Under the pieces are notes generated by a model. That model had not been told where the DNA came from. It made no database searches and was given only the letters and a program-made list of their open reading frames with translations. 64,000 nucleotides of DNA from an uncultured beta proteobacterium (GTDB taxonomy: Bacteria; Pseudomonadota; Gammaproteobacteria; Burkholderiales; SG8-41), in the NCBI GenBank assembly GCA_903933915.1, contig CAIZLW010000108.1, forward strand, positions 2,747 through 66,746, read 5' to 3'. Positions 13,147 to 57,540 of the stretch are shown here, piece by piece. How positions within the stretch are numbered: position 1 is the first letter of the stretch; each line of letters opens with the position of its first letter. A program made the position numbers and the translations under genes.

Positions 13147-14202
13147 CTACAAATCGATACGCCGCATTACCGCGCGACTGTTGCCGAAACAAGGGATGTA
13201 AACGGAGTGCGTCCCGGGCCCGCCCGCAACAATCAAATGAATGTCTTCCGGGCGCGGCGAAATCGGCAACAGCGTATCGTCGCGCAACTCGCCCAGTTCC
13301 GGTGTCCGCGAAGCGCGGGCGCGGTCGATCTCCTTGGCACTGAGATGTTTCACAGCCATCTTTGAGCGCTCCCACAACTCGCGTTTAACGGCGGCTTTAT
13401 CCCACCCCTCGCGGCGGAAAATTTCCGCGTGTTCGCTGCCGAGAATGAACCACGGCTCCCCGCCGTGCACATATTCATTACTGGTCGGGTGAATCATCGT
13501 CTCGGCGATGACCCGCGCCAGTTCAACGGCACCTTTGGCGTGGGTATTCATGTTCATCGTACCCTCGGCGCCGACCACCGTCACCGTGCTGTCGCCAATC
13601 GCAAAGCCGCGTTCGACGTGCAGTGGCTGCCAGGGATGATTTTGTTCATTCTCGGCACAGCAGAATGTGAATTTCCCGGGCTGCCCGTGCGTTGCGCGGT
13701 CCATTTCACCGGGCCAGGCGCCGCCGATGTTCTGCAGGATCAGGCGCAGCGCACGACCCAGCGTGGCGTTGGCCCAGTGGCCCTGGCCGATGCAGTTGAA
13801 GCTTGCGTTCACCTGCAGCTGCTGCGCGACCGGACCATTGAGCACCAGCCACACCGCAACCGGGTTGGTGGTCGCCTGGATGCCCTGCAGATTGAATTCG
13901 GGATCGGACACCGCCTCGGTCGCTGCAATCAGCACCGGCAGATATTCGGGATCACAACCGGCCATCACCGCATTGATGGCGATGCGCTCCACCGTGGCAG
14001 CGCCGAACCCCGGCGCCACACGTGCCACGAGTTCATGGCGGCCGCGGCGGCTGTGCGTCAGCATCCGTTCGACCCGCGCCGCCGTCGGCGGCACAATGGG
14101 CAAACCGTCGCTCCAGCGACGTTCACGGTAAAGCCGGTTGATGGCATCCAGATCGTCGGCAACGTCGAAGGAAGCGGCACGATCAATCATGGGTTCGCTC
14201 AT
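13147..14202 (-). CDS. uncharacterised partner protein of the UGSC selenoprotein (351 aa; DGLPIVPPT / NAVMAGC motifs)
   Basis: The ATG at 14202 overlaps the upstream stop as ATGA, with GGAGAG 7 nt upstream. It begins MSEPMIDR... It is clearly paralogous to residues ~215-567 of the fused protein at 18403..20106, sharing SDGLPIVPPT, A(I/V)N(A/G)VMAGC.PEY.PVL.AA.EA and (L/I)LNGPV. Confidence 0.8.
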   Translation of the reverse strand: MSEPMIDRAASFDVADDLDAINRLYRERRWSDGLPIVPPTAARVERMLTHSRRGRHELVARVAPGFGAATVERIAINAVMAGCDPEYLPVLIAATEAVSDPEFNLQGIQATTNPVAVWLVLNGPVAQQLQVNASFNCIGQGHWANATLGRALRLILQNIGGAWPGEMDRATHGQPGKFTFCCAENEQNHPWQPLHVERGFAIGDSTVTVVGAEGTMNMNTHAKGAVELARVIAETMIHPTSNEYVHGGEPWFILGSEHAEIFRREGWDKAAVKRELWERSKMAVKHLSAKEIDRARASRTPELGELRDDTLLPISPRPEDIHLIVAGGPGTHSVYIPCFGNSRAVMRRIDL

Positions 14203-14744
14203 CGCTGCTCTCCAGCCAGCAGTTTCGCGATGTCCGCCACACACTGCTCTGCGATCTTGCGTACATCCTCACGGCTGCGTCCGCCGAACGGATGCGGAAT
14301 CACCGCAATCGGCAACTTGCTGTTGCCCAGCGCACGCGCCTGCGCCCGGCCCAGGGTCTGAAACGCCGCGGAACAAACGGTCAGGGCCTGCTTGCCGTGT
14401 TTGGTCACTTCGATGCTGTCGTGGACACTCCACGACGCGCAGGATCCTCAGTCCCCGGATCCCGCAATCACCACATCACATTCAAGCGACAGCGCTGCAA
14501 TCACTGCCGGATCGGCAGGAATCGAGGCCGATGATTTGCGGCGTTTTATGACTTTGGCAACGCCATAACGCGACTGCAGAAGTTCGGCCAGGTCATCGGC
14601 CAGATGATTGAAATTCGGCTTTGCGTTGTCGATGAAGCCGACCGTCGCGCCAGCCAGTCCACGCAGGGTCGAGTGTGCAGCCGCAGCCTGCGTGTCGCCA
14701 GCGTGCGGCGCAGTCGGATCAAATAGCGTCAGAGTTCGCATCAT
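14199..14744 (-). CDS. UGSC-motif selenoprotein (181 codons; selenocysteine at codon 99 encoded by TGA 14450-14448)
   Basis: Two same-frame ORF-track pieces (14448..14783 and 14199..14408) are separated only by a TGA. Read-through gives ...DVVIAGSGD-U-GSCASWSVHDSIEVTKHG.... The ATG at 14744 has AGGA 5 nt upstream. The downstream piece has no SD or ATG of its own. A paralog at 19791 has the same U-G-S-C context. Confidence 0.8.
14418..14436 (-). promoter_or_regulatory. SECIS-like hairpin for the locus-1 UGA
   Basis: The mRNA reads GUCGUGGA-GUG-UCCACGAC, a perfect 8-bp stem with a GU-containing apical loop. It begins exactly 11 nt 3-prime of the UGA. Confidence 0.65.
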
Positions 14745-14772
14745 GTCATCCTGAAATGCCGATAAAAAATGC

Positions 14773-15750
14773 TCAGGGATCAAGCCGGATGTTGGCCTGC
14801 TTCACCAGCCGGGTCCACATCTGGATTTCCTTGCCGATGAAAGCCTGCAGTTCCTGCGGCGAGTTGCCGACCGGGGTTGCGCCCAGCGCGAGCAGCTGTT
14901 CGCGCATTTGCGACGCAGCCAGCGACTTCACGGTCTCGGCGTGGACGCGATTGATGACGGCGGGCGCAGTCCGCGCCGGCGCCAGCAACGCGTACCACAG
15001 CGTCGATTGATAACCCGGTACCGTCTCGGAAACTGCGGGAATGTCGGGATAAGCTGGTGACCGTGCGAGACTGGTCATGCCCAGTGCGCGCAACCGGCCA
15101 CTCTTCACATGGGGCATCGAAGGCAAGGGACTGGTGCAGATGATCTGCACCTGCCCAGCCACCACGTCGACCAGCGCGGGTCCCGCGCCCTTGTACGGAA
15201 TGTGTACAACGTTGATACCGGTCAGCGACTGCAGCAGCTCCACCGACATGTGACCGCCAGAACCGGGACCGGACGAGGCGTAATTGATACGGCCTGGCTG
15301 TGCCTTGGCCGCGGCAATCAGCTCCCGGATGCTGCCGACCTTGAGTGAAGGATGCGCCACAAACACCAGCGGCGACTCGGCCACCAGCGTGATCGGCACA
15401 AAATCCTTCAGCGTGTCGTAAGGCAGGTTATTACGCAGCGCCGGGTTGATCGAATGCGTCGCGCTCGCGAGGAACAGCGTGTAGCCATCCGGTGCCGCGC
15501 CTGCGGCAATTTGCGTGGCAATGACCTGCCCGCCGCCGCCACGGTTGTCATTGACCATCTGCTGTCCGAATGCCGTGCTCAGGCTACCAGCAAGCATGCG
15601 GCCGACGATGTCCCCCGCGCCACCGGGCGGATACGGGATGATCAGCCGGATCGGGCGTTGCGGATAACTGTCGGCGGCAAAAACTGAAAACGCGGCGCCT
15701 GACAACAATCCTGATACCAGGACGGTGCATAAAACGAGTTTTTTTACCAT
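14773..15750 (-). CDS. Bug-family (TctC-like) tripartite tricarboxylate transporter substrate-binding protein
   Basis: A signal peptide is followed by YPQRPIRLIIPYPPGGAGD, the canonical Bug N-terminal motif. Its stop is 29 nt upstream of the UGSC gene on the same strand. Confidence 0.9.
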   Translation of the reverse strand: MVKKLVLCTVLVSGLLSGAAFSVFAADSYPQRPIRLIIPYPPGGAGDIVGRMLAGSLSTAFGQQMVNDNRGGGGQVIATQIAAGAAPDGYTLFLASATHSINPALRNNLPYDTLKDFVPITLVAESPLVFVAHPSLKVGSIRELIAAAKAQPGRINYASSGPGSGGHMSVELLQSLTGINVVHIPYKGAGPALVDVVAGQVQIICTSPLPSMPHVKSGRLRALGMTSLARSPAYPDIPAVSETVPGYQSTLWYALLAPARTAPAVINRVHAETVKSLAASQMREQLLALGATPVGNSPQELQAFIGKEIQMWTRLVKQANIRLDP

Positions 15751-18343: not shown

Positions 18344-18360
18344 GGCAAAAGCACCAAAGA

Positions 18361-18386
18361 AAACGGGCGCCGCGGCGCCCGTTTTC
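18361..18386. terminator. bidirectional rho-independent terminator between convergent genes
   Basis: The stem acgggcgc/gcgcccgt has A-run and T-run flanks (aaacgggcgccgcggcgcccgtttt). Confidence 0.7.
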
Positions 18387-18402: not shown

Positions 18403-20106
18403 TTATTGACCCGACATCTTGATGGCCTTGCAAACCGGGAAGCCCAGCACGCCGTTATGAGCGAATACGTAGATGCTGTTGCGTCCCAGATCGCCCGTCA
18501 CCACCACCTGAAAATCCTCCGACTTCCACACCAGCGGCACCAGGCGCTGCGGATCGTCGGATTCGTGGAACATCTGCGGAATCCGTCCGGCCTGATGTTC
18601 CTCGGCCAGATTCCAGGTCGGCTTCTGCGTCCAGTCGCGGAGGATTTTTTCGAACATGTGCGCTGGCATCCGCGCCTGCCTGAACAATTCTTCGCGGAAT
18701 TTCTCCTTCGACCAACCACCTGCGGCAATGGTCTCGGCAATGATCGGAGACAGCAGCAGCAGCGGCCGCAGCGTGTCATAACCCTGTCCCACCGAAAACA
18801 TAATCTGCCAGGAATACTGACGCACGACGGCATCCGCGATATACGGCATCAACTCTTCGGGCGTGGCGCCGGATACCGAGGAGATGTGATTTCCGCCGGT
18901 ATAACGGCCAACCGACAGCGCATTGCTGCCCGCAGCGAATCCGTAATCGACACAATTCGGCGTCCAGCCGATTTTTGCAACCACATCCTCGTTTTCTGCA
19001 ACCACGACTCGCCAGGTATTGCCGAACGTAGCCTTGTCATTCTTGTGCGGCAGGAAGCCGGCAACGTTACGCAGATACAGGCGCCAGAAACGACCGACGC
19101 TGGTGTTGGCCTGAAAGCCGTCACGCATCACGCCTTGGGTATAGTTGAATCCCAATGCTTTGATGACCGGTCCGTTGAGAATAATCAGGTTGTCACCACC
19201 CGGCGTATTGCCGCTGTGTTCAACACCGTAATCGTGATCGGCCATGGCCTCGACCGCGGCCACCAGCACCGGCATGTATTCGGGACGGCATCCCGCCATC
19301 ACGCCATTGACCGCCACGCTCCACACCGTCGCCGCACGGTTGTCGGGCAGCATCACGCCCAGCACCTCATCGGCCTTGCGGTCGGTGTGGCGCAGAAACG
19401 CTTCCACCTTCTCAACCGTCGGCGGCACGATGGGCAGACCGTCGGACAGCTCATGCTTGAGGAAATACTCGTTCACTTCCTCAAACGTGCCGCTGCAGAT
19501 GACATCACGAGCGCCGGGTTCACCGCCAACGGTCGCCGCGGCAGGCATTTTGAACAAAGCATTGAGCACGCCATCCAGCGTCAGTTCGCGCACATTCTGC
19601 TGCAGCGCTTTCTTGCTTTGCAGGCCGGGATGGCCGCGCACGGGCGCCACCGCGATATTGGGATACCCCAATCCCAGCGACGCCGCCTTGGCCAGCGTCA
19701 TGAAACTCTCGCACACCAGCGTCGCTGACGGAATACCCGCCGTTTCAGCCGCCACACTGGCCCGCAACACGGCGGGCGTGCAGCTCCCTCAACAACCCAT
19801 CCCGGAGACGACGGCGTCGGCTCCGAGTTCTTTGAGCTTTTGCGGAAGATTGGCAACCACATTGCGTTCGTCGCTGCCGTGGGTGTTGCCGAACAGATCC
19901 CAGTGCAGGAATTTCACGCCGGGGAAACATTCGCGCATGCTGGCCTCGAGTTGCTCGAACACCTCGTTGCCGCGAAACACGTAATCCCAGACCCACGCTA
20001 CCGTCTTGCCTTCGAGCGTGTCCAAGCGCTTGGCCAGCGGCTTGACCTTGGCCTGACGCGGGCCGCGCGGCCACAGCGCGGCGTATTGAGAAGCTGAATC
20101 TGTCAT
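18403..20106 (-). CDS. fused UGSC-selenoprotein / partner-domain protein (567 codons; selenocysteine at codon 106 encoded by TGA 19791-19789)
   Basis: ORF-track pieces 19789..20130 and 18403..19770 are in the same frame. Read-through gives ...DAVVSGMGC-U-GSCTPAVLRASVAAETAGIPSATLVCESF.... The N-terminal ~190 residues are homologous to the 14199..14744 product and the rest to the 13147..14202 product. The ATG at 20106 has AAGGAA upstream. Confidence 0.8.
19760..19777 (-). promoter_or_regulatory. SECIS-like hairpin for the locus-2 UGA
   Basis: The mRNA reads GCCCGC-CGUGUU-GCGGGC, a 6-bp GC stem extendable by CAC/GUG across a 2-nt bulge. It begins exactly 11 nt 3-prime of the UGA, and its loop shares GUGU with the locus-1 hairpin. 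Confidence 0.6.
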
Positions 20107-20253
20107 TTGAAAATTCCTTGCGTGTTGCAAAAAATACAGGATAACGGATCAGCCAATCAGCGACCAGTCGCAGCGCACGTGTTAGCCTTGGATTTCGTCA
20201 TCAGACATCGCAATGTTCCGCGATGCGGACACCGCAAACTTCTGGAGCTGTAA

Positions 20254-32524: not shown

Positions 32525-32887
<363 letters not shown>

Positions 32888-32944
32888 TTATCGCCTGAAA
32901 AGAATAGCACAACAACCGGTCGTCGGAATCCTCCCCGGGAGACC

Positions 32945-34543
32945 TCAGTGCCGGAACTTGTTGGTAATCGGATATCGCCAGTCCTTGCCGAATCCGCGAT
33001 TGGTGATTCGGATACCCACCGGGGCCTGGCGCCGCTTGTATTCGCTGATCCGCAGCAGGCGCACCACCTTGTCGACATCGGCCCGGGCAAACCCCATGGC
33101 GATGATTTCCTGCGGGCTGCGGTACTGCTCGACATAGGCTTCCATGATTGCATCCAGAACATCGTAGGGCGGCAGGCTGTCCTGATCCTTCTGATCCGGC
33201 CGCAATTCGGCCGACGGGGGGCGATCGATGACCCGACGCGGGATCACCGCGCTCAGCGTGTTGCGATATTCACAAAGCCGGTAAACCAGCGTTTTCTTGA
33301 TGTCCTTGAGCACCGCAAAGCCGCCCGCCATGTCGCCATACAGCGTGGCGTAACCCGTGCCCATTTCGCTCTTGTTGCCGGTGGTCAGCACGATGGCGCC
33401 GGTCTTGTTCGACATCGCCATCAGCAGGGTGCCACGGATGCGCGCCTGCAGGTTCTCCGCGGTGACAGCCTCCTTCAACCCGCGAAACTCGTCTGCCAGG
33501 GCGGTGAGGAAGCCATCAAACATCGGACGAATCGCAATTTCCGAATACTTCGTGCCCATGATCTGCGCCTGCGCCTTGGCATCCTCGCAACTCATGTCCG
33601 CGGTGTACTGCGACGGCATCATCACCGCATGCACCTTGTCTGCACCCAGCGCATCCACGGCGACCGCCAGCGTCAGCGCCGAATCAATGCCGCCGGACAG
33701 GCCCAGCAATGCGCCGGGAAATCCGTTCTTGCCGAGGTAGTCGCGCACCCCCAGGGTCAACGCGGAGTACACATCCTCCTCCAGCGTCGTCACCGGAGCG
33801 ATTTGCCCCTTCAGCGGAACCCCGCCGGCCACCTCGATCAGCGCAACCACTTCCTTGAACGCCGGAAACTGGTGCGTCAGTTCGCCGTGGCCATCGACCG
33901 CAAACGATGCGCCATCGAACACCAGTTCATCCTGCCCCCCGACCTGATTGGCATAGATAACGGCCATACCAGTCTTGCCGATGCGTTCGCGCACCACCTC
34001 ATAACGCGTCAACTGCTTGTTGATGTGATAAGGCGAAGCATTGAGCACCAGCAGCAGTTGGGCGCCGGCATCGCGAGCCGCTCGTGCCGCCGGCTCCTCC
34101 CAGACGTCCGCACAGATATTGATGCCGACACGCACGCCTTCGTGCTCGAACACGCAAGGGGAATCGCCGGAATCGAAATACCGCTCCTCATCGAACACCG
34201 TGTAGTTGGGCAGCGTGCGCTTGAGGTAGGTGGCAATGACCTTACCGTCACGAATCACCGACGCTGCGTTATAACGCTTGCCGCCGATCTGATGCGGATG
34301 GCCCAGCACCACGGTGATTCCCGCAAGCTCTGCAACCAGGCGCTGGAACACCTTGTCGCAAGCGTGGAAAAAATCATCCCGCAGCAGCAGATCTTCCGGC
34401 GGATAACCGGACAAAGCGAGTTCGGTGGTCAACAACAGACTGGCACCCGACGCTTTTGCGCGACGCGCGGCATCGCTGATTTTTGTGGCATTGCCGTCGA
34501 GGTCGCCAACCGTGACATTCAGCTGTGCAATCGCTATTTTCAT
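32945..34543 (-). CDS. nadE: glutamine-dependent NAD(+) synthetase
   Basis: An N-terminal nitrilase/CN-hydrolase domain (MKIAIAQLN, ELALSGYPPEDL, ICADVW) and a C-terminal NAD synthetase domain (LGLSGGIDSA PP-loop). Confidence 0.92.
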   Translation of the reverse strand: MKIAIAQLNVTVGDLDGNATKISDAARRAKASGASLLLTTELALSGYPPEDLLLRDDFFHACDKVFQRLVAELAGITVVLGHPHQIGGKRYNAASVIRDGKVIATYLKRTLPNYTVFDEERYFDSGDSPCVFEHEGVRVGINICADVWEEPAARAARDAGAQLLLVLNASPYHINKQLTRYEVVRERIGKTGMAVIYANQVGGQDELVFDGASFAVDGHGELTHQFPAFKEVVALIEVAGGVPLKGQIAPVTTLEEDVYSALTLGVRDYLGKNGFPGALLGLSGGIDSALTLAVAVDALGADKVHAVMMPSQYTADMSCEDAKAQAQIMGTKYSEIAIRPMFDGFLTALADEFRGLKEAVTAENLQARIRGTLLMAMSNKTGAIVLTTGNKSEMGTGYATLYGDMAGGFAVLKDIKKTLVYRLCEYRNTLSAVIPRRVIDRPPSAELRPDQKDQDSLPPYDVLDAIMEAYVEQYRSPQEIIAMGFARADVDKVVRLLRISEYKRRQAPVGIRITNRGFGKDWRYPITNKFRH

Positions 34544-34590
34544 GGCGCTAATATATCATCGACGCGCATGTCTTTTGACGCGACACCGCC

Positions 34591-35709
34591 GTGAATCTGC
34601 TAGTAGCAACATCCCTTGATGCGGTTGATCCTCAGGCTTGGAACCGGCTCGCCGGTGACGACCCGTTCCTGCAATACGCCTTCCTGCACGCCCTGCACGA
34701 CACCGGATGCGCCTGTGCCGCCACCGGCTGGACACCGCAATACCTGCTGCTCCAGGACCGGGACACACTGCTCGGTGCCATGCCGCTGTACTTGAAACAG
34801 CATTCCTACGGCGAATATGTGTTCGACTGGGCCTGGGCCGATGCCTATCAGCGCCATGGACTGACCTATTACCCGAAGCTGCTCTGCGCCATCCCTTTCA
34901 CGCCGGTAGTCGGCAGCCGCATTCTCGCCCGCGAATCCGCCCATCGCGACCGGCTGATTGCCGGCGCGCTGGAACTGGCCAATCGCAGCGGCATCTCGTC
35001 GCTGCATATCCTGTTTCCGTCAGATACCGACCTGGGCGACCTCACCCGTCATGGACTGATGCTGCGCCAGGGCCTGCAGTTTCACTGGAATAACGACCAC
35101 TACACCGACTTTGAACAGTTTTTGTCACGACTCAGTCACGACAAACGCAAAAAAATCCGCCAGGAACGGCGCAAGGTGCGCGACACCGGCATTACCTTCG
35201 ACTGGCTCGAAGGCACGGCGATCGGCGATGACGATTGGCAGTTCTTTCATCGCTGCTACCGTCAGACCTATCGCGAACACCATTCGTCGCCATATCTGAA
35301 TCTGGAGTTTTTCCGGCGCATCGGTGCGGCCATGCCCGAAAGCTTCGTGCTGGTGCGCGCCCTGAGCGAAAATCGTCCGGTTGCAGCCTCGCTGCTGGTG
35401 CGTAACGCAACCCGGCTCTATGGCCGGCACTGGGGCGCCATCGAACATCATCCCATGCTGCATTTTGAAACCTGCTATTACCAGGCCATCGAATTCGCCA
35501 TTGCTCGCGGCCTGCAGGTGTTCGAGGGCGGCGCGCAGGGCGAACACAAGATGGCGCGCGGCCTGCTGCCGGTCGCCACGCAGTCGGCGCACTGGCTGGC
35601 GCATCCCGAATTTACCGCCGCCGTCGGCAAATATCTGGAGCGCGAAACAGCCCTGCTCGACGAACACGGCCGCACACTGGCCGCGCGGAATCCGTTCAAG
35701 TCGGGCTGA
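34591..35709 (+). CDS. GNAT-fold acetyltransferase, FemAB-like (DUF482/COG3146 type)
   Basis: Contains PFL.Y.FL.ALH.....A..GW.PQYL, KQHSYGEYVFDW.WA and HFE.CYYQ.IE. GTG start. Confidence 0.65.
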   Translation: MNLLVATSLDAVDPQAWNRLAGDDPFLQYAFLHALHDTGCACAATGWTPQYLLLQDRDTLLGAMPLYLKQHSYGEYVFDWAWADAYQRHGLTYYPKLLCAIPFTPVVGSRILARESAHRDRLIAGALELANRSGISSLHILFPSDTDLGDLTRHGLMLRQGLQFHWNNDHYTDFEQFLSRLSHDKRKKIRQERRKVRDTGITFDWLEGTAIGDDDWQFFHRCYRQTYREHHSSPYLNLEFFRRIGAAMPESFVLVRALSENRPVAASLLVRNATRLYGRHWGAIEHHPMLHFETCYYQAIEFAIARGLQVFEGGAQGEHKMARGLLPVATQSAHWLAHPEFTAAVGKYLERETALLDEHGRTLAARNPFKSG

Positions 35710-44733: not shown

Positions 44734-44965
44734 ATCCCCCCCCTTTTTTTCAATAAAAACATAAAGTTAAATTTATCATTAGACGCCGGACGGCACCGTG
44801 CGTTCAAGCCGCGCCATTATAGGTGAGACGCGCCTGGCCGATCATTACACCTCACAACAGAATCATGCACTAATTGCGATCACGCCCAGATTGCGAAACC
44901 GCAGCCGACCCGCGTACAGGAAGCTGCTAAAGTCGTCGCTCGCCATTCACGCTGGAATCACCGCC

Positions 44966-46384
44966 ATGTCGACACAGCCCGCGCCCGCCGCAGCCGCCGC
45001 AACCACACTATCCATTTCGCAGCAGATTGCCGAATTCGCCGCCAACCTGACGGCGGACGCCATCCCGGCCGATGTGCGCGAATGCGCCAAGCTGCATGTG
45101 CTCGATGTCGCCGGCACTGCACTGGCCGCAACCCGTTTCGATTTTGCCCAGCATGCGCTGGCGGGCATCATGAATCTCGCCGAAGGCGGCAACAACAGCG
45201 TCATCGGCATGAACGTCAAACTGCCGATGCGCGATGCGGTGCTGATGAACGGCATCCTCGCCCACGGCCTCGATTACGATGACACCCACCCCGGCGCCAT
45301 TGTGCATCCGACCGCCAGTGCGTTTCCCTGCTCACTGGGCGTCGCCGAAAAACGCGACGCCTCCGGCGCCGATCTGCTGATGGCGTACATCCTCGGCGTT
45401 GAAATCGCAACGCGCCTGGGCGTCGCCGCCGCGGGCACCATGCATACCCAGGGCTTCCATACCACCGGCATTGCCGGCCATTTCGGCTGCGCCGTCGCCG
45501 CCGGCAAACTATTCAACTTGAGCCCGCAGCGCCTGCAGTATGCGCAGGGATTCGCCGGCAGCACCGCCTCGGCAATTTCCGAACACCGCGCCGACGGCGC
45601 CTGGAACAAACGCCTGCACCCGGCCTGGGCCGGCGTCGGCGGCATTACCGCTGCGGGTTTGGCCAGCGGCGGCTTTGTCGGCACCCGCAAAATCTACGAA
45701 GGCGAAGACGGCATTTTCCGTTCGCACACCGGCACGCGCTTCAACGAAGTCGACATGGGCGCGATGACGCGCCGGCTCGGCGAGGAATGGCTGCTCAAGG
45801 AAGTCGCGATCAAACCGTTCCCGATCTGCCATTTACTCCATGCCTGTGCCGATTCCGCGCTAGCGATCCGCCGCAAGCACAATCTCAAACCCGAAGACAT
45901 CGTCAAGGTGCGCGCGCTGCTGCATCCGGAGACCTTTCACTACATCGCCGAGCCGCCGGAAATGCGCCGCCGCCCGGTGTCGGACTACATGGCAAAATTC
46001 AGCGTGCAGTTCGTGCTCGCCGCCTGCTTCGTCCGCGGCAAGTTCGGTTTCGCCGAACTCGAAACCGAAGCCCTCAATGACGCGGAAATCCTTGCACTGG
46101 CGCAAAAAGTGCACCATGAGGCCGATCCGGACTCAGCGTTCCCCAAATATTTCTCCGGCGGCGTTGTAGTCACCACCAAAGACGGCCGCGAACTGGTGCA
46201 CATGGAAAAAATCAACCGCGGCGCCGGTGAACGCGCGCTGTCAGCCGAAGACATCACCGAAAAGTTCTACGACAACGCATCGCTGGTGATTTCAAAACCG
46301 CAGGCCACGCGCATCCGCGACGCCGTGCTCGGCATGGACCGCCACAGCGCGCGCGACCTCGCCCGAGTGCTGGCACTGAACTGA
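44966..46384 (+). CDS. MmgE/PrpD-family protein (2-methylcitrate dehydratase-like)
   Basis: The ATG at 44966 begins MSTQPAP. It has the typical PrpD N-terminus (..A.F...L....IP..V......H.LD..G.ALA), HG.DYDD.H and HPTA. Confidence 0.85.
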   Translation: MSTQPAPAAAAATTLSISQQIAEFAANLTADAIPADVRECAKLHVLDVAGTALAATRFDFAQHALAGIMNLAEGGNNSVIGMNVKLPMRDAVLMNGILAHGLDYDDTHPGAIVHPTASAFPCSLGVAEKRDASGADLLMAYILGVEIATRLGVAAAGTMHTQGFHTTGIAGHFGCAVAAGKLFNLSPQRLQYAQGFAGSTASAISEHRADGAWNKRLHPAWAGVGGITAAGLASGGFVGTRKIYEGEDGIFRSHTGTRFNEVDMGAMTRRLGEEWLLKEVAIKPFPICHLLHACADSALAIRRKHNLKPEDIVKVRALLHPETFHYIAEPPEMRRRPVSDYMAKFSVQFVLAACFVRGKFGFAELETEALNDAEILALAQKVHHEADPDSAFPKYFSGGVVVTTKDGRELVHMEKINRGAGERALSAEDITEKFYDNASLVISKPQATRIRDAVLGMDRHSARDLARVLALN

Positions 46385-48032: not shown

Positions 48033-48266
48033 ATTTTTATCACTAATGTTAAAGACGCGTGCACTATACCCGGCAAGATTGTACGTGCAACTGCCGTTTG
48101 GCTATTCCCCGGAATCCCAGCAATAACAACGCCCTCCCGCAACCTGATGGCAAGGTGCTGAATTTTCATTTGACAAATGTAAAATGAATAATTATTATTT
48201 GCGCACTGTATCTCATCAGCCGCCGGATTGACTTCATGGCTGAAACTACTCGCAGAGGTGAAAAAT

Positions 48267-49679
48267 ATGGACCAATACGAGAAACCAATCGCCAAACCCA
48301 CCGCGACACTCGCAGAGTTCGTCGTGAACCTCGAATACGCAACTCTCCCCGCTCCTGTCGGAGACCGGGCCAGAATTGCGTTATTGGACACTCTCAGTTG
48401 CGGCATCGCGGGCCACCAAAGCGCGGCCGCTCAGTCGAGCAGGAAAACGCTGCGGCGATTTGGCCCGGTGCAACACGGCAGCGTAGTCTGGGGGACTTCA
48501 GAAATATTGCCCTCCCCCTGGGCCGCGTTGGCAAATGCGATCGCGGCCCGCTCGCCGAAAATGGACGACACTCACCTGGGCGGAAAGCTGCACCCAGGCT
48601 CATTTGTCATTCCTGCCATCCTTGCCGTTGCCGAAGAACGGGAGCGTGATGGGCGGGCTGTAAGCGGTCAATTGCTGATAGAGGCAATTACAGCAGGCTA
48701 TGAGATTGCAGTCAGGGTAAGCAGAGCGGCAGGTGCTGCCGAGCAAAGGCTCAGGGGCTGGCATCCGACTGGTACCTGCGGCCCCATTGGGGCGGCCGCT
48801 GCCGTCGCCAAGATTCTAGGGCTAGACGCGAAGACAACATTGTCTGCCTTGGGGCTAGGTGGCGATCAGGCTGCGGGCCTCTCCCTTCATCATACCGATG
48901 GGTCGATGGTGGGATTTTTCCACTCAGGCCATGCGGCGGCAGGAGGCATATTGGGCGCCTACCTCGCTGCCGATGGCTTTCGTGGCCCAGGAGAAGTGCT
49001 GGCTTCTGCGGATGCAGGCCTATGCCGCGCACTGACTGGCAGCTGTGATATAGACCAATTGACATCCGGTCTGGGGGAGCGATTTTCGCTTCTCGAAACC
49101 GGCATGAAACCCTACGCAAGCTGCCGCAGCACGCACGGCGCCGTGGAGTCGTCCATTCTCCTGCGCACGCAACGTGGGTTTACACCAGAATCGGTTCGCC
49201 GCGTCTCGGTCTTTACCAATCGCATTGCAAATATGCAGTGCCGCCACGTAGTACAGCCAGGCAACAAGGTTCCGGGCGGCTCAACCAGCATGGCATACAG
49301 CGTTGCTGCCGCCATTTGTGATCTGACTGTTGGCCCAAAGCAGTTTCATCCAGATCGCATGGCACAGGCGGATGTTCAGCAATTGGCGCAAAAAGTGGGC
49401 ATGGTTGTAGATCCTGACTTTGACGCCGTGTACCCGCAGCAGTGGCCCTGCAAAATCGAGATTGAGCTTGAAAACGGAGAAACGCTTTCCCGGTCTGTAG
49501 ACAATCCTCCTTGGGAGCCTGAGGACACCGCGGTTAATTGGCATGCCGTACAGGAACGCGCGAGGCACATGACAGAGGGCTTCATGGACTCCTACCGTCT
49601 CACCAGACTGATCTCGCTTGTCGAGGATCTGCCGAACCTGAAGACGATCACACCGCTGACACAAACCCTTGGCGGATAA
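48267..49679 (+). CDS. MmgE/PrpD-family protein (second copy)
   Basis: The ATG at 48267 is preceded by GAGGTG. It has PrpD motifs (LDTLSCGIAG, DDTH, HPGS). Confidence 0.85.
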   Translation: MDQYEKPIAKPTATLAEFVVNLEYATLPAPVGDRARIALLDTLSCGIAGHQSAAAQSSRKTLRRFGPVQHGSVVWGTSEILPSPWAALANAIAARSPKMDDTHLGGKLHPGSFVIPAILAVAEERERDGRAVSGQLLIEAITAGYEIAVRVSRAAGAAEQRLRGWHPTGTCGPIGAAAAVAKILGLDAKTTLSALGLGGDQAAGLSLHHTDGSMVGFFHSGHAAAGGILGAYLAADGFRGPGEVLASADAGLCRALTGSCDIDQLTSGLGERFSLLETGMKPYASCRSTHGAVESSILLRTQRGFTPESVRRVSVFTNRIANMQCRHVVQPGNKVPGGSTSMAYSVAAAICDLTVGPKQFHPDRMAQADVQQLAQKVGMVVDPDFDAVYPQQWPCKIEIELENGETLSRSVDNPPWEPEDTAVNWHAVQERARHMTEGFMDSYRLTRLISLVEDLPNLKTITPLTQTLGG

Positions 49680-49745
49680 CCCGCCAATGGCTCGATTCGA
49701 CACAAAATCAGACGATAAATGTTAACGGGGGCAGGGAGATATTGG

Positions 49746-50708
49746 ATGCGTCGTGTTATCGCTAAATGTTTAGTCGTCTTGGTCGGCACAACACTTTTCC
49801 AGGTTGTATTCGCCAATGCACAGGCTTACCCCAGCAAACCCATACGCATTATTACCAATGCTGCGGGAGGCGGAAATGATTTCATTGCCCGCCTGGTGGG
49901 ACCGCCCCTTTCAAAATTGCTTGGACAATCGATCGTTATCGAAAATCGCCCTGCGGCCGCTTTTCCTGCGCAGGTCGTAGCAAAATCGCCACCCGATGGC
50001 TACACGCTGCTCATCAGCGGCGGCACCTTCTGGATCGGCACTCTGCTGCAAGACGATCTTCCCTACAATATTTCCACTGACTTCTTACCAATAACGCTTC
50101 TCGGCACTTCACCAAACATACTTGTCGTTCACCCCTCGCTTCCCGTAAAAAACGTCAAAGATCTGATCGCTCTGGCCAAAGCAAAGCCTGGTCAACTGAA
50201 CTACGCATCGCCAAGCATAGGTGCGGCCCAACATCTGGCTGCCGAACTTCTGAAGTCAATGGCCAAAGTTGATATTGTCCGCATCAGTTACCGTGGAACA
50301 GCTCCCGCCCTTATGGCGGTGGTCTCCGGCGAGACGCACATCACTTTTGCCACCGCATCCGCAGCGCCGATCATTAAGTCTTCAAAACTTCGAGCACTGG
50401 CAGTTACCGATACGAAGCGGTCGTCTTTTTTCCCTGAATTGCCGACTATGGCTGAGTCAGGATTCCCGGGTTACGAAGCGAACGCGATGCAAGGCATATT
50501 TGCACCCGCAAAGACTCCGGCAGCGATTGTTAACCGTCTCCATGATGACCTCGCATCGGTATTGCGAAGCAGCGATGTGAAAGAACGGCTTGCAACATTT
50601 GGCATAGAGGCTGGCGGAAGCTCTCCAGCCGCTTTTTCGTTGATGGTGAGTTCAGAAATGTCGCGAATGGGCAAGGTAATCAAGGAAGCAAAAATTCGCG
50701 CAGAGTGA
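49746..50708 (+). CDS. Bug-family (TctC-like) substrate-binding protein
   Basis: A signal peptide followed by YPSKPIRIITNAAGGGNDF. The ATG is preceded by GGGAGA. Confidence 0.88.
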   Translation: MRRVIAKCLVVLVGTTLFQVVFANAQAYPSKPIRIITNAAGGGNDFIARLVGPPLSKLLGQSIVIENRPAAAFPAQVVAKSPPDGYTLLISGGTFWIGTLLQDDLPYNISTDFLPITLLGTSPNILVVHPSLPVKNVKDLIALAKAKPGQLNYASPSIGAAQHLAAELLKSMAKVDIVRISYRGTAPALMAVVSGETHITFATASAAPIIKSSKLRALAVTDTKRSSFFPELPTMAESGFPGYEANAMQGIFAPAKTPAAIVNRLHDDLASVLRSSDVKERLATFGIEAGGSSPAAFSLMVSSEMSRMGKVIKEAKIRAE

Positions 50709-50778: not shown

Positions 50779-51567
50779 ATGAGCAGGCTTTTCGAGCGTC
50801 TCAATGCAGGTCAAACAGCAGTTGGTGTTTGGATTAAAGGTGGGCCGGTTTGGGTCAACACATTAGCGCGCGCCGGATTCGACTTTGTCCGCCCGGATAT
50901 GATGTTTTCGGCCATGGACTGGCGCGAACTTGATCACATCCACCGCACTGCGCAAAGTGTGGGGCTCACGACCTGGGTTCGCGTACCCAGCAACCCCTGG
51001 CTTGGCGGCACTGACTCATTGCAAGTGACTGTAGAGGTTCAACGCGCCTTCAGCCTGGGCATTCCGATAGTTGGTGCTTCTATCGCGTCTGCGAAGCAGG
51101 CTGCAGCCTGTGTAGCCGTTTCAAAAGACTGGCATCGTTCGGGAACAGGGGAATATCCAAACTCGGAAGATTCCTTCAAAGCCATGAACAAAAAACTAGA
51201 AAACGTGGCTACTTTCGTACCGCACATAGAAGCTGGAACTGCAATTAACGAAATCGATGAAATTCTCGAAATCGACGGATTGCGCATAATCATGCTTGCC
51301 ATGACAGACCTGAGTGCGGCAATTGGATACTCCTTTCAATATGATCATCCAGAAGTGTGGAAGCTGGTTGACAGTATCGTTGCGAAGGCAAAATCACGCG
51401 ACATCATCGTGGCGGCAAATATGGGGTATGCGTTTACGACTCACCAGACCATGCTCGAACGTGTTCACAAGATGCAGCAACACGGCATCCGGATTTGCCT
51501 GATGCAAGGGGCCGACAATATGCTGGAAAATTTTGCAAAGCCGCTTCTTCAGGATATTCGCATCTAA
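50779..51567 (+). CDS. HpcH/HpaI-family aldolase/citrate-lyase-like protein (second copy)
   Basis: Contains GFDFVRPDMMFSAMDW, WVRVPS and a TIM-barrel aldolase pattern. It is more divergent than the copy at 16355. Confidence 0.65.
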   Translation: MSRLFERLNAGQTAVGVWIKGGPVWVNTLARAGFDFVRPDMMFSAMDWRELDHIHRTAQSVGLTTWVRVPSNPWLGGTDSLQVTVEVQRAFSLGIPIVGASIASAKQAAACVAVSKDWHRSGTGEYPNSEDSFKAMNKKLENVATFVPHIEAGTAINEIDEILEIDGLRIIMLAMTDLSAAIGYSFQYDHPEVWKLVDSIVAKAKSRDIIVAANMGYAFTTHQTMLERVHKMQQHGIRICLMQGADNMLENFAKPLLQDIRI

Positions 51568-51613
51568 GCTGAAGGAAAAATTTAAACCGCCACAAAAACC
51601 GAGATTCCGACTT

Positions 51614-52609
51614 ATGGCTATTGCTATATACGGTATTACTGCTGACTGTCGCGCACTAGCGAGATTTGTTGGCACCGCTCTTTTCCTAGCTTCCTTGTCG
51701 GCGCTCGCACAGACTTGGCCCAACCGGCCCATCCGCATGATCATTCCGGCGGCCCCCGGGGGCGGGGTCGACACTATCGGACGGATTGTGGGCCTTTCAT
51801 TATCAACAGCGCTTGGGCAACCGGTGGTTGTCGATAATCGCCCCGGCGCCGGCACGATGCTGGGTTCCGAGCTTGTGGCGAAGGCCCCACCTGATGGCTA
51901 CACGCTCTTGATGATGACCAACAGCCATGCCATCAATGCCGGAATCCAGAAGAGCCTCCGTTACGATCCCGTTAAGGATTTCACGACCATCTGTTCGATT
52001 GCGACACTGCCCTATCTTTTGATTGTCCACCCAAGCGTCCCCGCTCGCTCGGCTAAGGAACTCATCGCACTGGCAAAACGCCGCCCCGGAGACCTTGCCT
52101 TTTCGTCTGCGGGGCCAGGATCCGGCACGCATTTAGCCTTTGAGCTGTTCGTGTACATGGCCGGCATAAAAGCATTGCATGTTCCCTATCGCAGCGGATC
52201 AGCTGCGCTCACGGACCTCGCCGGGGGGCGCGTTCAAATGATGTTCAGTAATCTGATCAATTCCATGCCCTACGTCAGTAACAAGCGACTTGTCGCGCTT
52301 GCCATCACGACACCGAAACCCTCCCAGTTGTACCCTGAATTACCTACGGTGTCACAATCAGGATTGCCCGGATATGAATCGGATGCTTGGTATGGGCTGG
52401 TAGGGCCGGCGAACATGCCGGCAGATGCAGTGTCTCGCCTGAATCGGGAAGTGCTTGCAATAATTCGTACCGGCAAGGCAAGAGAGTTGCTCGCCACCCA
52501 GGGTGCGGACGTTACTGGAAGTACTCCAGAGCAATTCAACACCATACTCCGCCGCGACGTGGAGAAATGGACAAAAGTAGCCGCAAAGCTGAATATCCAG
52601 ATGGAATAG
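51614..52609 (+). CDS. Bug-family (TctC-like) substrate-binding protein
   Basis: A signal peptide followed by WPNRPIRMIIPAAPGGGVDT. Confidence 0.88.
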   Translation: MAIAIYGITADCRALARFVGTALFLASLSALAQTWPNRPIRMIIPAAPGGGVDTIGRIVGLSLSTALGQPVVVDNRPGAGTMLGSELVAKAPPDGYTLLMMTNSHAINAGIQKSLRYDPVKDFTTICSIATLPYLLIVHPSVPARSAKELIALAKRRPGDLAFSSAGPGSGTHLAFELFVYMAGIKALHVPYRSGSAALTDLAGGRVQMMFSNLINSMPYVSNKRLVALAITTPKPSQLYPELPTVSQSGLPGYESDAWYGLVGPANMPADAVSRLNREVLAIIRTGKARELLATQGADVTGSTPEQFNTILRRDVEKWTKVAAKLNIQME

Positions 52610-57405: not shown

Positions 57406-57446
57406 GTAATGAACAGCAGCCGCAGCAAGCGGCTGCTGTTCATTAC
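57406..57446. terminator. strong bidirectional hairpin terminator
   Basis: An 18-bp perfect stem, gtaatgaacagcagccgc-agcaa-gcggctgctgttcattac, lies between convergent genes. Confidence 0.7.
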
Positions 57447-57452
57447 GCACGG

Positions 57453-57540
57453 CTCATTTTGCGCGACTCATTTTGCGCGACTCATTTCGCGCGACTCATT
57501 TCGCGCGACTCATTTCGCGCGACTCATTTCGCGCGACTCA
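57453..57540. repeat. 14-bp direct tandem repeat, 6 full copies plus a 4-nt partial
   Basis: ctcattttgcgcga x2 then ctcatttcgcgcga x4 then ctca. The last unit contains the final codons and TGA stop of the minus-strand VWA gene (AGT CGC GCG AAA TGA). Confidence 0.9.

What the first reader, a model, noticed from the sequence alone, without database searches (positions are those of the whole stretch)
14199..14783. Selenocysteine-encoding in-frame UGA in a U-G-S-C motif (locus 1), hidden by ORF calling
The ORF track shows two fragments, 14448..14783 and 14199..14408. They are in the same frame and are separated only by TGA (14450-14448) plus 13 sense codons. The downstream fragment has no Shine-Dalgarno sequence and begins at an internal GTG.

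Reading through gives ...CDVVIAGSGD-U-GSCASWSVHDSIEVTKHGKQALTVC..., a UxxC redox-type motif. A perfect 8-bp hairpin (GUCGUGGA-GUG-UCCACGAC) starts exactly 11 nt after the UGA. That is the spacing known to be required between the UGA and the minimal upper stem-loop of the E. coli fdhF SECIS.

An independent paralog 5 kb away has the same TGA-GGN-AGC-TGC context (see the finding at 18403-20130). From memory, NCBI family models include a 'UGSC family (seleno)protein' of unknown function. I cannot verify membership here.
Basis: partly seen in the sequence, partly recalled or inferred. Interest (0 to 1): 0.85.

Follow-up and report, generated by a model that had tools for sequence, protein, structure and literature searches.

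The report
Selenocysteine UGA in a UGSC-family gene
The apparent stop codon at 14450-14448 almost certainly encodes selenocysteine in a 181-residue protein of the known "UGSC" selenoprotein family, so this is a correct call of an ordinary, known kind of gene that automatic gene finders cut in two.

Summary
On the minus strand one frame runs from ATG 14744 to stop 14201-14199, broken only by TGA 14450-14448. A perfect 8-bp hairpin starts exactly 11 nt after that TGA.

The read-through protein matches Pfam UGSC (PF24696) end to end at 158 bits. In 80 related species genomes the same column is always TGA. The frame continues 79-92 codons, with the same codon-position diversity downstream as upstream. 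Synonymous variation collapses only over the hairpin codons. More distant homologues carry Cys there (CGSC).

The paralogue at 20106-18403 has its own TGA with a different hairpin at the same offset. In 8 of the 80 related loci, tRNA-Sec lies just downstream of the operon; in the one locus read (L045), SelB is there too.

Not shown: selABCD and tRNA-Sec are absent from this window, and selenium incorporation is untested.

The family has been described since 2007-2008 with unknown function. New context found here:
- a conserved operon (tctC, then UGSC, then an unannotated 351-aa partner);
- an ATGA overlap between the UGSC stop and the partner start;
- a natural UGSC-partner fusion.

Already known kind, modest interest.

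The parts
14199..14744 (-). UGSC-family selenoprotein gene, 181 codons plus stop. Start ATG 14744-14742 (a second ATG lies at 14741), Sec codon 99 at 14450-14448, stop TGA 14201-14199.
   Evidence: Translation. Pfam PF24696 158 bits spanning the UGA. 80 orthologous loci have the same architecture.
14448..14450 (-). In-frame UGA read as selenocysteine (U of the U-G-S-C motif).
   Evidence: TGA in 82 of 82 locus-1-type loci and in 160 of 160 U-column stops over both subfamilies. Cys occupies this column in 136 of 150 family representatives.
14412..14441 (-). Putative SECIS. Lower stem nt 10-14/35-39, bulged A34, upper stem nt 15-22/26-33 (14436-14418), apical loop G23 U24 G25.
   Evidence: Fold. 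The upper stem is invariant in 75 distinct sequences, with 3 changes from G-C to G-U. Normalised codon entropy is 0.052 here against 0.698 elsewhere, p=1.8e-5. Third-position diversity is 0.014 against 0.53.
13147..14202 (-). Partner gene, 351 aa, no annotated family (the 'Unknown_1' domain of the 2008 GOS paper, by inference). Its ATG 14202-14200 overlaps the UGSC stop as ATGA, and GGAG lies 7 nt upstream.
   Evidence: Sequence. Directly downstream of UGSC in 68 of 70 loci with room, and within 1 kb in the other 2. No Pfam or NCBIfam hit. More than 6000 database homologues, all 'hypothetical'.
14773..15750 (-). TctC/Bug-type periplasmic solute-binding protein gene, first gene of the apparent operon.
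   Evidence: PF03401 on the orthologue in L001. Upstream on the same strand in 50 of 72 loci.
18403..20106 (-). Paralogous locus 2: UGSC domain fused to a partner-type domain (567 codons). UGA at 19791-19789; own SECIS at 19784-19751 with upper stem GCCCGC/GCGGGC and loop CGUGUU.
   Evidence: All orthologues have TGA. 95.6% of cells are paired in 52 distinct sequences, against 23-48% when the partner columns are slid.

Best explanation
The minus-strand gene 14744..14199 encodes one 181-residue selenoprotein of the UGSC family.

**Recoding (inferred).** During translation, the UGA at 14450-14448 is decoded as selenocysteine. Sec-tRNA(Sec) would be delivered by the elongation factor SelB, which is tethered to the mRNA hairpin at nt 15-33 after the UGA (14436-14418, loop G23-U24-G25). 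This is the bacterial SECIS mechanism.

**Product.** The protein carries a U99-G-S-C102 selenol/thiol redox pair.

**Coupling to the partner.** The stop codon overlaps the start of the next gene (ATGA at 14202-14199). Ribosomes therefore reach the partner's start only if Sec insertion succeeds, which should couple the amounts of the two proteins.

**Function (inferred).** The two proteins work as one unit. They are adjacent in essentially all relatives and fused in the paralogue at 20106-18403. I infer that UGSC is the redox-active module serving a catalytic partner whose only invariant cysteine is C83 (VMAGC). The substrate is probably a carboxylate imported through the TctC-type binding protein encoded just upstream.

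**Shown versus inferred.** Shown: one conserved reading frame through the UGA, Sec/Cys pairing with homologues, the constrained hairpin, and the gene linkage. Inferred: SelB dependence in this organism, selenium in the product, and the biochemical role.
For: 1. **Family match.** The Pfam UGSC match spans the UGA at 158 bits. NCBIfam UGSC_fam gives E=1.8e-35.
2. **Conserved TGA and frame.** 80 species-level genome loci, with pairwise protein identity 55-99%, all have TGA at this column. All keep 79-92 further codons before a stop.
3. **Coding selection downstream.** Diversity at codon positions 1/2/3 is 0.26/0.19/0.52 upstream and 0.22/0.18/0.53 downstream, so selection acts on the same frame.
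4. **No code change.** TGA is also the normal terminal stop of 76 of 80 of these genes.
5. **Cys homologues.** P0002 and 136 of 150 representatives, mostly CGSC.
6. **Constrained hairpin.** Synonymous sites are frozen only in codons +4 to +10: Ser always UCG, Ser always AGU, Val GUC, Asp GAC. Entropy is 0.052 against 0.698, the lowest of 130 sliding windows, p=1.8e-5.
7. **Same offset in other members.** The locus-2 family carries a different hairpin starting at the same nucleotide 15. A third type in L091/L101 differs from locus 1 by a G-C to C-G swap. L147 has an unrelated stem at about the same place, starting 12-13 nt after the UGA.
8. **Match to E. coli geometry.** The E. coli fdhF SECIS has its upper stem-loop at nt 15-31, 11 nt from UGA, with G23 and U24 in the loop (PMC8659212).
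9. **Linkage to Sec genes.** tRNA-Sec lies 1.3-2.4 kb downstream of UGSC in 8 of the 80 locus-1-type loci, and right behind the fused gene in L128 and L132. SelB is adjacent in L045.
10. **Operon.** Conserved tctC-UGSC-partner order and the ATGA overlap.
11. **Literature.** UGSC-containing proteins are recognised selenoproteins: 255 Sec against 21 Cys forms in GOS, plus a UGSC/Unknown_1 fusion (PMC2398784; PMC1976440).
Against: - No tRNA-Sec, SelB or other sel gene is in the 64-kb window, so the machinery is unverified for this genome.
- No Rfam family matches the hairpin, either at gathering thresholds or at E<=10.
- The hairpin lacks the bulged U17 of the E. coli element.
- Within each orthologue group the stems are nearly invariant, so true compensatory changes are few: one pair each, and the shuffling controls are not exceeded.
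- The local folding energy is not unusual for this G+C content (z=-0.89).
- The NCBIfam score is 2.9 bits under the curated cutoff, with Cys typed for Sec.
- The functional part is inference only. The partner model has no significant structural neighbour. The UGSC model is poor in its C-terminal half.
Confidence: 0.92

Rival explanations
1. The TGA is a real stop. The locus makes a 98-residue protein, and the downstream 69-codon ORF is separate or untranslated (a split gene or pseudogene).
For: Gene callers annotate it this way everywhere: 119 of the 120 best database hits end at ...GSGD. The downstream ORF has a possible GTG start.
Against: TGA, never TAA or TAG, occupies this column in 160 of 160 loci. 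The downstream frame shows the same codon-position pattern as the upstream one and a conserved length. Cys-containing homologues are continuous. The Pfam profile spans the site. There is no Shine-Dalgarno sequence before the GTG at 14408.
Confidence: 0.02
2. The UGA is read through without selenocysteine. This could be near-cognate insertion of Trp, Cys or Arg, or a reassigned genetic code, with the hairpin merely slowing ribosomes.
For: The Sec machinery was not seen in the window. Stem-loops can stimulate stop-codon read-through in general (own knowledge).
Against: TGA is the ordinary terminal stop of 76 of 80 orthologues, so the code is standard. The column pairs specifically with Cys in a CxxC-type motif, the classical Sec signature. 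tRNA-Sec is physically linked to the operon in 10 related loci, and SelB is adjacent in the one locus read, L045. The family is an accepted selenoprotein family.
Confidence: 0.03
3. This genome has lost the Sec machinery, and both UGSC genes are recent relics that no longer yield full-length protein.
For: No sel genes were found in the 64 kb examined. Their presence elsewhere could not be tested.
Against: Two independent UGA and SECIS pairs are both intact here, identical or near-identical to those of many relatives. Decay would be expected to hit hairpins or frames first. The closest relatives (99% and 94% identity) keep the same arrangement.
Confidence: 0.03

Closest known systems
UGSC-containing selenoprotein family (Pfam PF24696; NCBIfam NF041046; Zhang and Gladyshev 2007/2008, PMC1976440, PMC2398784)
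   Same: Full-length profile match. U-G-S-C motif at the conserved column. Sec forms outnumber Cys forms among close relatives. Occurs in non-marine aquatic bacteria. Exists both alone and fused to an unknown C-terminal domain.
   Different: Nothing essential; this is a member. Added here: the conserved tctC-UGSC-partner operon in Burkholderiales, the ATGA overlap with the partner, and the nucleotide-level description of its SECIS.
E. coli fdhF SECIS (SelB-binding mRNA hairpin)
   Same: Lies immediately downstream of the UGA inside the coding sequence. The upper stem starts at nt 15 (11-nt spacer). G23 and U24 are in the apical loop (PMC8659212).
   Different: No bulged U17. The stem is a continuous 8 bp with a 3-nt loop (or 7 bp with a 5-nt loop). 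A single bulged A sits on the 3' side between the upper and lower stems. There is no sequence similarity and no Rfam hit.
Two-subunit selenoenzymes with a UxxC selenoprotein subunit (D-proline reductase PrdA/PrdB, glycine reductase GrdB/GrdE)
   Same: A UxxC selenoprotein obligatorily paired with a second, larger protein. Plausibly reduces a small organic acid. This is analogy only.
   Different: No sequence similarity: the Pfam scan at E<=10 returns only UGSC. No PrdB or GrdB appears among structural matches. The partner has no detectable relation to PrdA/GrdE. The hosts appear to be freshwater Burkholderiales, not Stickland fermenters.

Membership tests
UGSC family (Pfam PF24696) | Whole-protein score above the Pfam gathering threshold, match covering the profile | tested here: met
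   158 bits against a cutoff of 25; residues 7-177 on profile positions 2-171 of 172, with Cys typed for Sec.
UGSC family (NCBIfam NF041046, equivalog) | Score at or above the curated cutoff of 125 bits | tested here: inconclusive
   122.1 bits, E=1.8e-35, profile positions 2-146 of 147. This is 2.9 bits short. The tool would not accept U, so Cys was substituted.
UGSC family | U/C-G-S-C motif at the conserved column after the ...V(I/V)xGxGD strand | tested here: met
   ...VVIAGSGD-U-GSC.... CGSC occupies the same column in 100 of 150 representatives.
Bacterial selenoprotein gene (SelB/SECIS recoding) | In-frame UGA that aligns with Cys in homologues, with a conserved coding frame on both sides | tested here: met
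Bacterial selenoprotein gene (SelB/SECIS recoding) | Conserved stem-loop directly downstream of the UGA with G/U in a small apical loop | tested here: met
   Hairpin at nt 15-33, loop GUG or GUA. Synonymous-site constraint. Paralogues have hairpins at the same offset. SelB binding itself was not tested.
Bacterial selenoprotein gene (SelB/SECIS recoding) | selA, selB, selC (tRNA-Sec) and selD present in the same genome | not testable with these tools
   None is in the window, and the rest of the genome is not available. In relatives, tRNA-Sec is adjacent in 10 loci, and SelB is adjacent in L045.
Bacterial selenoprotein gene (SelB/SECIS recoding) | Selenium in the full-length product | not testable with these tools
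   Needs 75Se labelling or mass spectrometry.
E. coli fdhF-type SECIS | 11-nt spacer between UGA and the minimal upper stem-loop, with G23 and U24 in the loop | tested here: met
   Stem starts at nt 15; loop is G23 U24 G25. Reference values from PMC8659212.
E. coli fdhF-type SECIS | Bulged U17 on the 5' side of the upper stem | tested here: not met
   Nt 15-22 pair continuously with nt 26-33. The only bulge is A34 on the 3' side.
Rfam SECIS families | Covariance-model match | tested here: not met
   No SECIS family hit at gathering score over the window, nor at E<=10 over 14300-14550.
Thioredoxin-fold oxidoreductases (suggested for UGSC in PMC2398784) | Thioredoxin-like fold with the redox motif at the start of a helix | tested here: inconclusive
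   In the AlphaFold model of the Cys homologue P0002 (pLDDT 64.5), the C-terminal half is unreliable, partly because the input alignment was misaligned. The 50 best PDB matches are weak alpha/beta folds and none is a thioredoxin.
GrdB/PrdB selenoprotein B family (Pfam GRDB) | Detectable sequence or fold similarity | tested here: not met
   Only UGSC is found at E<=10 in Pfam. There are no such PDB matches by sequence profile or by fold.

The most novel reading that the evidence does not exclude
UGSC and its unannotated 351-residue partner together form a previously uncharacterised two-component selenoenzyme, fused into one chain in the paralogue. The partner would have a fold not represented among solved structures. 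The enzyme would act on a carboxylate delivered by a TctC-type transporter, and partner synthesis would be gated by successful Sec insertion through the ATGA overlap.
Probability: 0.3. Interest if true: 0.6.

Novelty: already known. Interest (0 to 1): 0.3.

Why it matters
- **Annotation.** Almost every database copy of this gene is split or truncated at the UGA. The window's two loci are four mechanical ORFs but two real genes.
- **Biology.** UGSC is one of the most abundant aquatic selenoprotein families, and its function is still unknown.
- **A route to function.** Three things make the function testable in cultivable Burkholderiales: the strict pairing with a large partner family that has no Pfam, NCBIfam or PDB relative, the natural fusion, and the linkage to TctC-type uptake genes.
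- **SECIS models.** The very strongly constrained hairpin is a clean example for training bacterial SECIS models in betaproteobacteria, where Rfam currently finds nothing.

Tried and rejected
- **Rfam.** cmscan over the window and, permissively, over 14300-14550 gave no SECIS hit.
- **Folding energy.** Z-scores of the 61-nt segments are not significant at this G+C content, so I did not use them as evidence.
- **Covariation within orthologue groups.** The stems are almost invariant and the shuffling controls are not exceeded. I rely on synonymous-site constraint and on comparison between subfamilies instead.
- **Sec genes in the window.**
  - ARAGORN found only tRNA-Ser.
  - tblastn with ORFs of 200 aa or more from five loci that carry tRNA-Sec found no sel-gene match; the only SelB identified, in L045, was among the queries.
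  - Pfam on ten large ORFs found nothing.
  - A scan for other in-frame TGA sites with good coding signal on both sides found only locus 2 and shadow frames.
- **Structure of the natural fusion.** I tried to predict it to see the Sec-to-partner geometry.
- **Structure of the two proteins.**
  - Partner model: pLDDT 79, pTM 0.83. No PDB match reaches E<=1e-3. The best is class I fumarate hydratase at TM 0.25, followed by weak SelD/ThiL-like hits that I regard as noise.
  - UGSC model from the Cys homologue is poor in the C-terminal half and gives only weak generic alpha/beta matches.
- **PDB sequence searches.** Single-sequence and profile searches found nothing.
- **GrdB/PrdB idea.** The hypothesis that UGSC is a distant GrdB/PrdB relative has no support.
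Full report
**What is in the sequence**

On the minus strand a single reading frame runs from ATG 14744-14742 (a second ATG follows at 14741, and AGGA lies just upstream) to TGA 14201-14199. It is interrupted only by TGA 14450-14448. The two ORFs in the mechanical list (14783..14448 and 14408..14199) are the two halves of this frame. Thirteen sense codons lie between the TGA and the internal GTG. Read-through gives a 181-residue protein with ...CDVVIAGSGD-U-GSCASWSVHDSIE....

Counting the U of UGA as nucleotide 1, nt 15-22 (GUCGUGGA) pair perfectly with nt 26-33 (UCCACGAC) around the loop G23-U24-G25. A weaker lower stem (nt 10-14 with nt 35-39) flanks a bulged A34.

**Is the hairpin more than chance?**

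The window holds 1972 TGA trinucleotides on both strands. Only three are followed at exactly 11 nt by a perfect stem of 8 bp or more with a 3-8 nt loop. One is this site. The other two are intrinsic terminators behind stop codons (18400 on the minus strand, 57402 on the plus strand). With a 6-bp threshold, the UGA of the second locus (19791) also appears. The folding energy of the segment is not unusual for 60% G+C (z=-0.89), so I give it no weight.

**Family**

With Cys typed for Sec (the tools refuse U), the protein matches Pfam PF24696 'UGSC family' at 158 bits over profile positions 2-171 of 172. The match runs straight through the UGA. It also matches NCBIfam NF041046 'UGSC family (seleno)protein' at 122.1 bits, just under the curated 125.

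**Do homologues have Sec, Cys or a stop here?**

In the protein database, 119 of the 120 best hits stop at ...GSGD and cover 51-54% of the query. It is an artefact of gene calling, as the DNA shows.

- I fetched 80 species-representative genome loci, nearly all freshwater 'Burkholderiales/Betaproteobacteria bacterium' MAGs, with pairwise protein identity 55-99%. Together with three loci fetched earlier, 82 loci have TGA at that column followed by GSC[AST]SWS[VI]HDS[VI]E.
- All 80 aligned gene sequences keep 79-92 further codons before a stop.
- Nucleotide diversity at codon positions 1/2/3 is 0.26/0.19/0.52 upstream of the UGA and 0.22/0.18/0.53 downstream. Both halves are under the same protein-coding selection in the same frame.
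- The terminal stop of 76 of these 80 genes is itself TGA, so the genetic code is standard.
- The one full-length hit, P0002, has ...GMGDCGGCTTWSIHDG..., with Cys opposite the UGA.
- An exhaustive HMMER search with P0002 found 1300 cluster representatives. Of the best 150, 136 have Cys in this column (CGSC in 100), 8 end exactly before it, and 17 are fusions of 450 aa or more.

This is the classical Sec/Cys signature.

**The SECIS**

Within the 80 orthologues the string GUCGUGGAGU(G/A)UCCACGAC is almost invariant, including positions free to vary. Ser is always UCG (80/80), Ser always AGU (80/80), Val always GUC (47/47), Asp always GAC (80/80), and His is CAC (77) or CAU (3). The CAU variant turns a G-C pair into G-U.

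Normalised codon entropy over codons +4 to +10 is 0.052, against 0.698 for 129 other columns. That is the lowest of 130 sliding windows (Mann-Whitney p=1.8e-5). Third-position diversity there is 0.014.

Because the stem hardly varies, formal covariation is weak: one pair with changes on both sides, and the shuffling controls are not exceeded.

Independent support comes from other family members.

- The paralogue in the window (UGA 19791-19789) has a different hairpin, GCCCGC-CGUGUU-GCGGGC. Its upper stem also starts at nt 15, above a 7-bp lower stem and a 2-nt bulge.
- In 52 distinct sequences of that subfamily, from a metagenome scan, 95.6% of cells are paired, against 23-48% when the 3' partners are slid. 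There are many one-sided G-C/G-U and U-G/U-A changes and one G-C to A-U exchange.
- A third type (second gene in L091/L101) reads GUCGUGCA-GUC-UGCACGAC, a G-C to C-G swap relative to locus 1.
- L147 and L146 have unrelated stems at about the same place, starting 12-13 nt after the UGA.
- All 160 stops at the U column across all loci are TGA.

The geometry matches what is described for E. coli fdhF: an upper stem-loop at nt 15-31, 11 nt from the UGA, with G23 and U24 in the loop (PMC8659212). The bulged U17 is missing here. No Rfam family matches.

**Sec machinery**

The window contains only tRNA-Ser(CGA). tblastn with ORFs of 200 aa or more from five loci that carry tRNA-Sec, including the SelB gene of L045, found no sel-gene match in the window. 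Ten large ORFs contain no sel genes by Pfam.

In relatives the linkage is striking.

- tRNA-Sec(UCA) lies 1.3-2.4 kb downstream of the UGSC gene in 8 of the 80 species loci: L045, L048, L055, L059, L075, L076, L080 and L081.
- It lies directly behind the fused gene in L128 and L132.
- In L045 it is followed by a thioredoxin-reductase-like gene and SelB.

**Surroundings and likely function**

The UGSC stop overlaps the ATG of the next gene (ATGA, 14202-14199), with GGAG 7 nt upstream. This 351-residue partner (14202..13147) follows UGSC directly in 68 of 70 loci with room, and within 1 kb in the other two. A TctC/Bug solute-binding protein gene precedes UGSC on the same strand in 50 of 72 loci.

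The paralogue at 20106..18403 is a natural fusion of a UGSC domain and a partner-type domain, about 31-33% identical to the separate partner. The 2008 GOS study already noted a 'UGSC/Unknown_1' fusion (PMC2398784).

The partner family has more than 6000 database homologues. All are 'hypothetical', with no Pfam or NCBIfam model and no PDB relative by sequence or profile. Its AlphaFold model (pLDDT 79.4, pTM 0.83) has no structural neighbour at E<=1e-3. Its only invariant cysteine is C83, in VMAGC.

The UGSC model, made from the Cys homologue because the tool rejects the substituted window sequence, is reliable only in its N-terminal beta-alpha-beta-alpha-beta half. It gives only weak generic matches. 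The input alignment was partly misaligned.

My functional reading is inference from linkage and fusion, not a demonstrated result. UGSC would be a selenol/thiol redox module serving a catalytic partner that acts on an imported carboxylate.

Between the two loci lie an HpcH/HpaI aldolase, an enolase-superfamily enzyme and a short-chain dehydrogenase. MmgE/PrpD genes recur near the operon in other genomes.

**Comparison with what is known, and verdict**

UGSC-containing proteins have been listed as selenoproteins of unknown function since 2007 (PMC1976440). They were among the most abundant selenoprotein families in the GOS data, especially in non-marine samples, with 255 Sec and 21 Cys forms (PMC2398784). 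They remain uncharacterised in a 2026 review (PMC13188914). NCBI already names some orthologues 'UGSC family (seleno)protein'.

The finding is therefore a correct recognition of a known kind of gene. The novelty is low.

What this analysis adds is the nucleotide-level constraint on the SECIS, the conserved tctC-UGSC-partner operon with its ATGA overlap, the repeated linkage to selC (with selB alongside in L045), and the fact that the partner is a large family without any annotation or structural relative.

Noticed in passing
window 18403-20106 (-), UGA 19791-19789: A second UGSC gene, fused to a partner-type domain (567 codons). It has its own in-frame UGA and a different SECIS hairpin (GCCCGC-CGUGUU-GCGGGC) starting at the same nt 15. 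All 120 best database hits are 406-471-aa C-terminal fragments cut at the UGA.
   Followed up: yes
window 13147-14202 (-): The 351-aa partner of UGSC belongs to a family with more than 6000 homologues. It has no Pfam, NCBIfam or PDB relative and no significant structural neighbour for a fairly confident model (pTM 0.83). Its single invariant Cys is in the motif VMAGC.
   Followed up: partly
L045 7646-11418; also L048, L055, L059, L075, L076, L080, L081, L128, L132: In these relatives, tRNA-Sec sits right next to the UGSC-partner operon or the fused gene. In L045 it is accompanied by a PIN-domain gene, a TrxB-like gene and SelB.
   Followed up: partly
L091 and L101 (second TGA-containing gene); L115: Some contigs carry two different UGSC-type selenoprotein genes side by side. 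One is a third sequence type (…ATGD-U-GSCSSCSLHDAIE…) whose hairpin differs from locus 1 by a compensatory G-C to C-G swap.
   Followed up: partly
window 57440-57540 (+): Tandem array of a 14-nt unit (TCATTTCGCGCGAC), 7.2 copies, 94% matches. It begins within the 3' arm of a strong terminator-like hairpin (about 57411-57444).
   Followed up: no
window 18357-18385 (-): Intrinsic-terminator-like hairpin (AAAACGGGCGC-CGCG-GCGCCCGTTTT) right after the TAA stop of the fused UGSC gene. It accounts for one of the three 'TGA plus 8-bp hairpin at 11 nt' cases in the window.
   Followed up: no
window 32738-34594 (+): A 618-codon ORF with no Pfam match at E<=1e-5. It overlaps by 4 nt the start of a FemAB-like (PF04339) gene at 34591-35709.
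   Followed up: no
window 44798-46384, 48228-49679, 49719-50708, 51533-52609 (+): Two MmgE/PrpD-family genes lie in this region. Two stretches there also match TctC-type binding proteins from related loci by tblastn (42-44% identity). The same gene types recur beside UGSC operons in other genomes, so this looks like a general carboxylate-catabolism neighbourhood.
   Followed up: partly
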